A stretch of DNA of 64,000 bases from an uncultured Chloroflexia bacterium. Lineage in GTDB: Bacteria > Chloroflexota > Dehalococcoidia > DSTF01 > JALHUB01. The notes under the pieces were generated by a model, which was not told the DNA's origin, made no database searches, and saw only the letters and a list, made by a program, of their open reading frames with translations. The stretch is from NCBI GenBank assembly GCA_963703345.1, contig OY969814.1, positions 1,952,001 through 2,016,000 on the forward strand, given 5' to 3'. This document shows positions 52,797 through 54,221 of the stretch, piece by piece (within the stretch, counting starts at the first letter, position 1; each line of letters starts with the position of its first letter). Position numbers and translations under genes: made by a program.

Positions 52797-52824
52797 TTGA
52801 CAACTTGGCGCGGCGGACTATAAT
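52797..52824 (+). promoter_or_regulatory. Consensus sigma70 promoter pointing at the 3' end of the NYN gene
   Basis: TTGACA-16 nt-TATAAT, both hexamers perfect. Confidence 0.75.
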
Positions 52825-52830
52825 GAGGTC

Positions 52831-52912
52831 GCTGGACCCCCTGAGAATGCGTAGCAATCTCAGGCGATAAGCCTCAACGGGTTGCTTTGCAACCCGTTGC
52901 GCTATTTCCAGC
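52831..52912 (+). ncRNA. Candidate structured small RNA convergent with the NYN gene
   Basis: CCTGAGA/TCTCAGG hairpin, perfect 11-bp CAACGGGTTGC-TTT-GCAACCCGTTG hairpin, possible GCTGGA/TCCAGC closing stem; no RBS-bearing ORF. Confidence 0.55.
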
Positions 52913-53432
52913 ACCCCTTCAGGAACGTCTTATCGATTCGAATTGCCTTGTCGGCGACGTCGCGCAGGTGCTGCGACGACCAGGCGTCGCCGAAGAGCGC
53001 TACTTCCACGTGCCTGCCGGTATCCTTCACCGCCTGGAGAGCGTCGGCGAAGTCATTGTCGCCGCTGACGAGGACGGCTACGTCGTAGAGATTGTGGTAG
53101 GCGTGCTGTTGGATGTCGGTGGCGATCTTTACGTCGATGCCTTTCTCGTAGGCAGGCTCGGTGGGCCAATTGCGATAGACGAGGCGTCCGAGGCGAACTT
53201 CCAGGTAGGGAATGCGGCGCATTCGGTTGAAGAAGGTCTGCTGGTCCTTGTAGCGCTCGGGCTCTTTCGTGTGGTCGACAGGCGCGTTGTAATAGTAGAC
53301 CCGGATTAGCTGGCGCTTGCCGGCGAGCTTCTTGGTGAAGGCTTCGAAATCGAGATTGGTGTAGCCGTAGATCGACTTGATGGAGTGGTAGACGTTGCTG
53401 CCGTCGATGTAGACCATGACCCGATCGGGCAT
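52902..53432 (-). CDS. NYN (LabA/DUF88, PIN-like) ribonuclease
   Basis: YIDGSN, RVYYY, EKGIDV, LVSGDNDF, G..VEV, S..LR..AD; catalytic Asp residues intact. Confidence 0.93.
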   Translation of the reverse strand: MPDRVMVYIDGSNVYHSIKSIYGYTNLDFEAFTKKLAGKRQLIRVYYYNAPVDHTKEPERYKDQQTFFNRMRRIPYLEVRLGRLVYRNWPTEPAYEKGIDVKIATDIQQHAYHNLYDVAVLVSGDNDFADALQAVKDTGRHVEVALFGDAWSSQHLRDVADKAIRIDKTFLKGCWK

Positions 53433-53534
53433 AAGCTACCTCTGATATAAATCTTCTGATGCTAGTATATGTTAGTCAACATTGGGGCGCCAGCCAGGGC
53501 GGGCATCCGCCAAGGGCGTACTCCTACGAATCGC

Positions 53535-54221
53535 ATGACTGAGGAGGTCTTGTGCGCGGCGGCGATGAGGCAGGCAAGCCCGTCGAACTTGGCGACGGAG
53601 CGAGGCGTCGTTTCGTGCCTGTACCACGAAGGCAGTCGCGGCGGCGGCGCGGTCGTTTTCGTCGGCGGGACCGACGGCGGATTCGCCGGGCCGGCGAACA
53701 GCATCTACGCGACGCTGGCGGACGACCTGCGCGCGGCTGGGATGAGCTCGCTGCGACTGGACTTTCGCCTGCACACGGCGCCGGGAAACGTCGAAGAAGG
53801 GACGCACGACGTTCTGGCCGGCGTTGCCTTCCTTAAGAGCAAAGGAGCGGGACGAGTCGGGCTCGTCGGACACTCGTTCGGCGGCGCGGTGGTGGTAAAC
53901 GCGGCGGCGCTGTCGGACGACGTGGACGCGGTGGTTACGCTGAGCACGCAGACGGCGGGAACGACGCTGGTGGGCCGCATCGCTCCCCGGCCGCTCCTGC
54001 TGGTGCACGGCGAGCTGGACACACGTCTGCCGCCGCGATGCTCGCGCTACGTCTACGAGCGCGCCGGCGAGCCGAAGGAGCTGGTCATCCTGGCCGGCGC
54101 GAAGCACAGCCTGCGGCAGCGTCGGGAGGAGCTGCGGACGTTGCTGCGGGAGTGGCTGATGGCGCGGTTAGGTGCGCAGGAGGACCAAGAAGGGTCCGGG
54201 CCGCGCCAGCTCGATCCCTGA
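53535..54221 (+). CDS. Alpha/beta hydrolase
   Basis: GHSFG nucleophile elbow, HG..D, GA.H. Confidence 0.88.
   Translation: MTEEVLCAAAMRQASPSNLATERGVVSCLYHEGSRGGGAVVFVGGTDGGFAGPANSIYATLADDLRAAGMSSLRLDFRLHTAPGNVEEGTHDVLAGVAFLKSKGAGRVGLVGHSFGGAVVVNAAALSDDVDAVVTLSTQTAGTTLVGRIAPRPLLLVHGELDTRLPPRCSRYVYERAGEPKELVILAGAKHSLRQRREELRTLLREWLMARLGAQEDQEGSGPRQLDP

What the first reader, a model, noticed from the sequence alone, without database searches (positions are those of the whole stretch)
52797..53432. NYN ribonuclease paired with a strongly promoted, structured non-coding RNA: candidate RNA-antitoxin/RNase-toxin module
Seen: the cleanest TTGACA-16-TATAAT promoter I noticed in the window fires on + into about 80 nt with no RBS-bearing ORF. 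That stretch folds into a CCTGAGA/TCTCAGG hairpin (52840-52864), an alternative AGGC-GATAA-GCCT hairpin, and a perfect 11-bp hairpin (52875-52899). A GCTGGA(52831)/TCCAGC(52907) stem could close it, overlapping the last codons of the convergent NYN gene, whose catalytic Asp residues are intact. Known: type III TA systems (ToxIN, CptIN, TenpIN, AbiF) pair an RNase with an adjacent structured RNA antitoxin. I do not know of a characterised NYN/LabA-DUF88 equivalent. Inference: the RNA binds or antisense-silences the NYN nuclease, possibly as an abortive-infection or stress module inserted beside nfo.
Basis: partly seen in the sequence, partly recalled or inferred. Interest (0 to 1): 0.85.

Follow-up and report, generated by a model that had tools for sequence, protein, structure and literature searches.

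The report
Two-hairpin RNA partnered with NYN ribonuclease
A short, conserved two-hairpin DNA element with its own strong promoter sequence travels with a predicted RNA-cutting enzyme across bacteria, archaea and viruses, and is likely a small RNA that binds and restrains that enzyme, which would make it a new family of RNA-antidote toxin systems.

Summary
The perfect promoter (52797-52824) precedes two homologous ~35-nt units (A/U linker plus 10-bp hairpin) with strong covariation (18 of 20 pairs) and no Rfam match. Searches starting from the RNA found this LabA/DUF88 NYN gene beside it in 32 of 36 metagenome hits; the other 4 end at contig edges. The RNA follows its own promoter in three layouts: convergent (here), upstream (archaea, phages, several phyla) and divergent. 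Antisense pairing or termination alone cannot explain that. Distant plasmid NYNs show a similar layout, one a textbook repeat-terminator-nuclease array on an E. coli plasmid. Best reading: an AbiF-like RNA antitoxin for a PIN-fold nuclease (0.55). Against: two large Dehalococcoidia clades keep all catalytic residues without the RNA, HEC-09 gave no phage defence, and nothing shows transcription, binding or toxicity. Ten literature searches found no description. The scan had not noted this family, only other NYN families with structured leaders.

The parts
52797..52802 (+). -35 box TTGACA of the RNA promoter
   Evidence: TTGAC lies 43-47 nt before hairpin 1 in 44 of 60 RNA copies (36-60 nt in 48 of 60), against a 2.8% background
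52819..52824 (+). -10 box TATAAT of the RNA promoter; start site predicted near 52831
   Evidence: start site inferred from spacing, not mapped
52831..52906 (+). Candidate non-coding RNA of about 76 nt (82 nt if the clade-specific closing stem to 52912 forms), made of two homologous units
   Evidence: fold z = -7.0; model R1 hit 52825-52906, by construction; no Rfam match
52831..52864 (+). Unit 1: linker plus hairpin 1 (52840-52864). Degenerate in this clade: linker GCUGGA instead of the family RAUUA/RAUGA, and an A-A mismatch at the otherwise U-A pair
   Evidence: column counts; pair counts
52865..52899 (+). Unit 2: canonical linker (GAUAA-G-CCUC) plus 11-bp hairpin 2 (52875-52899) with the invariant U-A pair
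   Evidence: U-A in 63 of 63 rows, 3 of which are reverse-strand hits
52900..52907 (+). Weak U-tract after hairpin 2 (4 T of 8), overlapping the NYN stop codon at 52902-52904
   Evidence: 46 of 60 copies have at least 5 T here; not scored as a terminator
52902..53432 (-). LabA/DUF88-type NYN (PIN-like) predicted ribonuclease, 176 aa, acidic site D10, D100, D106, D125, D127
   Evidence: PF01936 E 3e-27; closest solved fold 2qip, TM 0.75, then MARF1 NYN; single close copy in the genome
53464..53492 (-). Likely promoter of the NYN gene: TGGCGC-17-TATACT, with a poor -35 box
   Evidence: read from the sequence; TATAAT/TATACT at this place in relatives; not scored
51872..52729 (-). nfo (endonuclease IV), neighbour only, transcribed away from the RNA promoter
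   Evidence: TIGR00587 above cut-off; other neighbours in other lineages
53529..54221 (+). alpha/beta hydrolase, neighbour only
   Evidence: upstream flanks differ among relatives

Best explanation
The locus holds a predicted NYN ribonuclease gene and, facing it, a promoter sequence followed by two repeated hairpin units that are likely transcribed as a small RNA which binds the nuclease and would hold it inactive, as the RNA antitoxin of AbiF does. Shown: the promoter, the repeat structure, covariation, the strand bias, the tight linkage to this NYN family, and three gene layouts. Inferred: each unit (single-stranded RAU(U/G/A)A-N-CYC linker plus a 10-bp stem ending in U-A, U-A, G-C) is one protein-binding site; the perfect promoter keeps the RNA in excess over the nuclease, whose own -35 box is poor; where the RNA lies upstream, hairpin 2 plus the U-tract also limits read-through into NYN; when transcription stops (phage takeover, loss of the element, stress) the RNA decays and frees the nuclease. 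Lineages that lost the RNA would have tamed the nuclease by other means.
For: Covariation: 15 of 20 pairs in the 18-row seed and 18 of 20 in the 63-row set change on both sides, 0 of 500 shuffles, slid controls at 30-50% pairing. G-U pairs on the promoter strand outnumber A-C/C-A 35 to 9 in 60 rows. The two units match position by position. RNA-first linkage: 32 of 36 metagenome hits, 6 of 7 strong hits in 150 class genomes, one truncated, and 21 of 24 genome hits, one a fragment. In 93 genomes of the order, 14 have both, 1 the close NYN only, 3 the RNA without a close intact NYN, 75 neither. Layouts: 17 convergent and 15 upstream; divergent in G487 and L290. Prophage-type and restriction-modification neighbours in L266-L269, L027 and L029. 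NYN lost or truncated with the RNA kept: L168 versus L125/L127, L164, L190, G463, G465. A distant NYN (23% identity) on a 4.6-kb E. coli plasmid has promoter, 33-nt repeats, terminator and ORF in type III order. Precedent: RCd22 has two 33-35-nt hairpin motifs and neutralises AbiF in cis and trans (PMC12373285, passages).
Against: Two nested Dehalococcoidia clades (67 and 21 rows) lack the RNA within 1.5 kb yet keep D10, D100, D106, D125 and D127 in 88 of 88 rows. A genome-wide search of 10 genomes whose close NYN lacks the RNA found no strong copy (best E 0.009, beside a distant NYN paralogue). L012 and L013 also lack it. The protein occurs in 26 of 33 sampled Dehalococcoidia genomes, mostly once, which looks housekeeping. 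Most Chloroflexota neighbours are metabolic genes, and the window's copy is old and fixed. HEC-09, cloned with about 150 bp upstream where possible, protected against none of the phages tested, and the toxicity note in the methods names HEC-03 and HEC-04, not HEC-09 (bioRxiv 2024.01.29.577857, passages). A CRISPR-associated NYN is a non-specific trimming RNase (PMC11346440, abstract). Orphan RNAs persist in two congeneric genomes. Unit 1 is degenerate in this clade.
Confidence: 0.55

Rival explanations
1. The RNA is a true ligand of NYN, but the nuclease is a non-lethal RNA-processing or decay enzyme. The RNA tunes it as a decoy or scaffold, and in the upstream layout serves as a self-cleaved feedback leader.
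For: 88 RNA-less orthologues keep the full acidic site. Broad single-copy presence in the class. Strong purifying selection at a fixed site. HEC-09 gave no defence. LabA-type NYNs are listed as function unknown, not as toxin-antitoxin toxins (PMC5499597, passages).
Against: Patchy in the window's order (15 of 93). Present on prophage-like contigs, beside restriction-modification genes and on small plasmids. No canonical second unit elsewhere in the window's genome that would mark a regulon: 10 loose matches, only the locus itself with the family linker and apical stem.
Confidence: 0.27
2. The RNA acts only on the NYN message: an attenuating leader where it lies upstream, and a convergent antisense or interfering transcript here, like the 3'-overlapping type I systems of Bacillus (recalled).
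For: Convergent layout with a weak U-tract (4 T of 8) allows read-through into NYN. U-tracts in 17 of 22 upstream copies. Hairpin 2 would also lie in the 3' end of the NYN message.
Against: The same unpaired linker and invariant U-A pair are kept in all three layouts. Antisense pairing needs no conserved sequence. A divergent RNA shares no sequence with the message. Overlap with the coding region is only a few bases.
Confidence: 0.1
3. NYN cuts the array into single hairpin RNAs that have a function of their own, for example on other RNAs or proteins, so the RNA is the product and not the inhibitor.
For: Repeat units with a conserved A/U linker, 3 units in L140 and L019. Orphan RNAs stay intact without NYN.
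Against: Loops are short and variable, mostly 3-9 nt, with no spacer-like guide segment. No second conserved protein partner.
Confidence: 0.05
4. The hairpins are only the NYN terminator or DNA palindromes, and the promoter is coincidental.
For: Both strands fold equally well. No transcript evidence is available.
Against: Fixed promoter spacing in 44 of 60 copies. Two homologous units. G-U bias towards the promoter strand. The element also lies upstream of and divergent from NYN. RNA identity of 0.80-0.93 against 0.50-0.67 for the adjacent intergenic DNA in 8 relatives.
Confidence: 0.03

Closest known systems
AbiF / RCd22 (abiF motif RF03085) RNA toxin-antitoxin system
   Same: RNase gene plus a promoter-driven RNA with two simple hairpin motifs of 33-35 nt; a terminator limits read-through; the RNA acts in cis and in trans by binding the protein (PMC12373285, passages); found on prophages.
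   Different: The protein here has the NYN/PIN fold, not Abi_2/AbiF. No RF03085 match. The RNA can be convergent or divergent. Hairpin 2 doubles as the likely terminator.
Type III toxin-antitoxin systems ToxIN, CptIN, TenpIN
   Same: Tandem ~35-nt RNA units, promoter-repeats-terminator-toxin order in the upstream-layout relatives, A-rich linkers (PMC5086642, passages).
   Different: Different toxin fold. Simple hairpins with variable loops instead of the pseudoknots described there. This locus is not bicistronic. Many orthologues have no RNA.
LabA/DUF88 NYN family (PF01936, COG1432; structure 2qip)
   Same: Sequence, fold and acidic site.
   Different: No RNA partner or toxin-antitoxin role is given for this cluster in the passages read (PMC5499597).
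HEC-09 (PADLOC PDLC04163), Hma-embedded NYN candidate
   Same: Profile match at 74.8 bits. Relatives sit among restriction-modification genes (L027, L029). Plasmid NYNs scoring 155-158 bits have structured leaders.
   Different: The window protein scores about half as high, and an RNA-less orthologue scores 69 bits, so the match is not specific. The preprint never uses the terms non-coding or ncRNA, and reports no defence.
3'-overlapping type I systems such as txpA/RatA (recalled, no call)
   Same: Convergent RNA gene whose 3' end overlaps the 3' end of the toxin message.
   Different: The toxin there is a small peptide. Here the RNA sequence and structure are conserved regardless of layout.

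Membership tests
LabA/DUF88 NYN (PF01936) | Pfam NYN match above the curated cut-off | tested here: met
   96.2 bits against a cut-off of 24.2
LabA/DUF88 NYN (PF01936) | PIN-like fold with conserved acidic residues | tested here: met
   model pLDDT 94; 2qip TM 0.75 and MARF1 NYN next; five Asp conserved
LabA/DUF88 NYN (PF01936) | Metal-dependent RNase activity | not testable with these tools
   needs an assay
Type III TA (ToxIN/CptIN/TenpIN) | Toxin of the ToxN/CptN/TenpN fold | tested here: not met
   only NYN families and folds match
Type III TA (ToxIN/CptIN/TenpIN) | Antitoxin made of tandem short RNA repeats | tested here: met
   two homologous ~35-nt units, three in L140 and L019
Type III TA (ToxIN/CptIN/TenpIN) | Bicistronic order promoter, repeats, terminator, toxin | tested here: not met
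   this locus is convergent; the order is met in 15 of 32 metagenome relatives
Type III TA (ToxIN/CptIN/TenpIN) | Pseudoknotted antitoxin monomer | not tested
   no pseudoknot was scored; the loops vary in length and sequence, which does not suggest one
Type III TA (ToxIN/CptIN/TenpIN) | Toxicity neutralised by direct RNA-protein binding; processing of repeats by the toxin | not testable with these tools
   needs expression, co-purification and cleavage assays
AbiF RNA-TA | Abi_2/AbiF protein family | tested here: not met
AbiF RNA-TA | abiF RNA motif RF03085 | tested here: not met
   no Rfam hit in the window or in 10 related loci
AbiF RNA-TA | Two simple hairpin motifs of about 35 nt in a promoter-driven RNA beside the RNase | tested here: met
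Type I antisense TA | RNA complementary to the toxin message in all members | tested here: not met
   upstream and divergent layouts
HEC-09 | Specific match to PDLC04163 | tested here: inconclusive
   74.8 bits against 155-158 for plasmid NYNs and 69 for an RNA-less orthologue; no cut-off shown

The most novel reading that the evidence does not exclude
This is the first-seen member of a widespread new family of RNA-antitoxin systems whose toxin is a PIN-fold NYN nuclease. It reaches from archaea and prophages to small E. coli plasmids, includes HEC-09, has orphan RNA copies in phage late regions that act as decoys, and was domesticated into RNA-free housekeeping nucleases at least twice in Dehalococcoidia.
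Probability: 0.4. Interest if true: 0.9.

Novelty: new variant of a known kind. Interest (0 to 1): 0.8.

Why it matters
LabA/DUF88 NYN proteins are a large family of unknown function. A dedicated RNA ligand gives a direct handle on them and would add a further toxin fold to RNA-antitoxin systems. The position-independent RNA gene, the orphan phage copy and the RNA-less descendants offer a natural series for how a conflict nuclease is neutralised, countered or domesticated. A similar layout on a 4.6-kb E. coli plasmid makes the idea testable at once, and may explain why HEC-09 looked inactive.

Tried and rejected
Rfam: no family at gathering score in the window, apart from two tRNAs, none in 10 related loci, and only ColE1 RNAI in 14 distant loci. 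One chance microRNA hit at E 0.48. ARAGORN finds no tRNA or tmRNA here, so the three-way fold is not a tRNA. No RNA holder was listed for the stretch, which says nothing about expression. Closing stem: rejected as a family feature. Inserts at the NYN 3' end in L001 and L022: first suspected to be part of the system, but they carry a dispersed palindromic repeat found 7-28 times in each of 4 genomes. RNA-guided nuclease: rejected, no spacer-like segment. Protein residues that separate RNA-linked from RNA-less clades: none clear-cut. C-terminal tails as a substitute for the RNA: long tails occur only in RNA-less rows, but many of those have none. One search returned almost only loci already held, and one weak hit. 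Model R2 does not detect the leaders of the four plasmid loci scanned with it (best E 0.08), and L348-L357 were not scanned, so their kinship to this RNA is by architecture only.

Full report
OBSERVATION. The promoter is a 12-of-12 match, the only promoter-like site in 50-56 kb and one of 8 such perfect sites in the genome. The 84 nt from 52831 fold at z = -7.0, but the opposite strand folds equally well. Rfam and ARAGORN give nothing for it. The protein is a LabA/DUF88 NYN: PF01936 at E 3e-27, closest solved fold 2qip and then MARF1. Its closest relatives come from genomes titled Dehalococcoidia or Chloroflexia.

THE RNA IS A CONSERVED FAMILY. Of 29 loci found with the protein, 26 carry the element. 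Sixteen of these were in the training set and 10 were not. L012 and L013 lack it, and L024 ends at the contig edge. In the 18-row seed, 15 of 20 pairs show changes on both sides. In the 63-row model-fitted set 18 of 20 do, with 96% of cells paired against 30-50% for slid controls (3 of the 63 rows are reverse-strand hits). These controls ignore relatedness, and the larger alignment leans towards the model. After dropping those 3 rows, G-U pairs on the promoter strand outnumber A-C/C-A pairs 35 to 9, which points to that strand. The RNA is two homologous units: linker RAU(U/G/A)A-N-CYC, then a 10-bp stem whose apical pairs are U-A, U-A, G-C, with a variable loop. TTGAC lies 43-47 nt before hairpin 1 in 44 of 60 copies, against a 2.8% background, and at least 5 T follow hairpin 2 in 46 of 60. 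In the window's clade unit 1 is degenerate and its 5' end can pair with the antisense of the NYN C-terminal codons. That closing stem is intact in 15 of 19 rows with no compensatory change, so it is at most a local feature.

IT IS TIED TO THIS NUCLEASE. Searches that start from the RNA return the protein. In 150 genomes of the class, 7 had a strong hit and 6 of them an adjacent NYN, one truncated. A DNA pattern gave 24 genome hits. Fourteen were loci already held, matched by contig name. Of the 10 new ones, 6 have an intact adjacent NYN, 1 a fragment, 1 a gene split off by an insertion at a contig end, 1 no NYN, and 1 is a false match. In metagenomes 32 of 36 hits have the NYN adjacent, and the other 4 have 60 nt or less of contig left. 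Many of these are near-duplicates. In 93 genomes of the order, 14 have both parts, 1 the close NYN only, 3 the RNA without a close intact NYN and 75 neither. One of the 93 is unpublished and counts among the 75.

THREE LAYOUTS. The RNA is convergent in 17 and upstream on the same strand in 15 of the 32 metagenome cases. Upstream copies occur in records titled Omnitrophota, Aminicenantes, Coatesbacteria, Planctomycetia and an archaeon, and in viral contigs. In G487 and L290 the RNA is divergent from an NYN gene (the G487 gene is frameshifted and the L290 RNA is a weak match). The RNA sequence always follows its own promoter, not the NYN strand. A function that survives all three layouts is most simply binding to the protein. 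This step is inference.

HISTORY. In a tree of 154 proteins (quick method, short alignment, uncertain root, 8 frameshifted or partial rows dropped) RNA-linked genes occupy the deep branches, with upstream layouts basal. Two starred Dehalococcoidia clades of 67 and 21 rows lack the RNA, which suggests losses. Next to nfo the module is shared by 13 of 18 genomes of the family, with dN/dS 0.03-0.075 and RNA identity above that of the flanks in 8 of 8 comparisons, so it is not a recent insertion. Elsewhere the neighbours differ from lineage to lineage. Most are metabolic, but they include a phage integrase, an antirepressor, HTH repressors, a DNA methylase and a type ISP restriction-modification pair (131 neighbouring ORFs). 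NYN was deleted or truncated with the RNA kept in L168 (compare L125/L127; 348 bases of that genome are withheld), L164, L190, G463 and G465.

EVIDENCE AGAINST A STRICT TOXIN. All 88 RNA-less rows keep D10, D100, D106, D125 and D127, and no strong RNA copy was found elsewhere in 10 genomes whose close NYN lacks it, with 150 candidates scored in each. The protein is in 26 of 33 sampled genomes of the class. HEC-09, the nearest defence candidate, protected against no phage tested (bioRxiv 10.1101/2024.01.29.577857, passages). No call shows transcription, binding or toxicity.

WIDER FAMILY. Distant NYNs of about 23-35% identity often have a similar layout. Of 14 annotated plasmid loci, 7 have upstream leaders at z of -4 or lower. 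Three with an abutting upstream ORF have none, and four are weaker or unclear. For comparison, 1 of 20 RNA-less orthologues, 2 of 13 distant chromosomal or viral NYNs and 10 of 11 upstream-layout members fall below z = -3. A plain terminator can also give a low z. L349, on a 4.6-kb E. coli plasmid, has a promoter, 33-nt repeats (2.6 copies at 96%, plus a fourth related hairpin), a separate terminator and the ORF. The same protein occurs in 17 plasmid records. One hairpin of that array recurs unchanged upstream of NYN genes on Phaeobacter and Acetobacter plasmids, and L355 shows a convergent promoter-linker-hairpin unit. My model does not detect the plasmid leaders it was run on, so they are analogues or distant kin.

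MECHANISM. Most likely the RNA is an antitoxin-like ligand, made in excess from the perfect promoter, with one nuclease site per unit, and with hairpin 2 doubling as a terminator (0.55). A non-lethal nuclease tuned by the same RNA is the main rival (0.27). Antisense or attenuation only (0.10), the RNA as a processed product (0.05) and a mere terminator (0.03) follow. Together the first two put direct RNA-protein binding at about 0.8.

COMPARISON AND NOVELTY. It works most like AbiF/RCd22 (PMC12373285, passages) and shares the repeat logic of type III systems (PMC5086642, passages), but it fails membership in both on protein fold and RNA family. PMC5499597 (passages) lists LabA-type NYNs as function unknown. 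PMC11346440 (abstract) describes a CRISPR-linked NYN as a non-specific trimming RNase. Ten searches returned no paper describing an NYN with its own RNA, and none holds both 'NYN' and 'type III toxin-antitoxin'. Two 2026 preprints on non-coding surveys do not mention NYN in their main text (term searches); their supplements are closed. The motif tables of the Breaker-laboratory surveys were seen only as search listings and could contain this RNA. Subscription journals are mostly not covered.

VERDICT. A real, apparently undescribed structured RNA family dedicated to a LabA/DUF88 NYN nuclease; likely an RNA antitoxin, unproven. New variant of a known kind; interest 0.8.

Noticed in passing
L198:1477-1561 (-), same in L199: Intact RNA copy in a viral contig, just after an ORF among structural-looking genes, with no TTGAC in the usual place and no NYN within 1.5 kb or in the record (43% complete). 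Possible phage decoy.
   Followed up: partly
L349:230-400: E. coli 4.6-kb plasmid: promoter, four hairpin units of about 33 nt, terminator, then an NYN gene, in textbook type III order with no Rfam match. One hairpin recurs in L354 and L356.
   Followed up: partly
L189 3' end and L200 5' end: An insertion with group II intron-like ends (recalled motifs) sits directly after hairpin 2 and its U-tract, separating the RNA from its NYN gene; class IIC introns target terminator-like stem-loops (recalled).
   Followed up: partly
L001:583-860, L022:3530-3625; 19 loose matches in G000 outside the finding: Dispersed palindromic repeat (core CTGAGGG-TTGAAA-CCCTCAG, often in inverted pairs, REP-like). In L001 and L022 it comes with a 28-bp duplication of the NYN 3' end.
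   Followed up: partly
L027 and L029: Two copies of the RNA-NYN module in one Coatesbacteria genome, each between the methylase part and the specificity part of a type ISP restriction-modification locus.
   Followed up: partly
L345, L352, L357: Plasmid NYN genes without a structured leader have an ORF abutting or overlapping their start, which could be a protein partner in place of the RNA.
   Followed up: no
L031-L043, L064-L122: RNA-less Dehalococcoidales orthologues often share a conserved downstream gene, and some carry long Arg- or Pro/Gln-rich C-terminal tails.
   Followed up: partly
L332, L334, L335, L337-L339, L342: Chloroflexota NYNs at 28-35% identity have promoter plus AU-rich linker plus one or two hairpins plus U-tract, upstream or (L335) convergent; weak or no match to my model.
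   Followed up: partly
G000:C1:82385, 546872, 550269, 1420366: Four other perfect sigma-70-type promoters precede leaders that share a CCCGCCAACAG-GGAGGTTGCGCGATG-like stretch, apparently a small paralogous leader family.
   Followed up: no
L237, L253, L180: These RNA copies lack TTGAC and share a GCCGATTCC box upstream, perhaps a promoter for another sigma factor.
   Followed up: no
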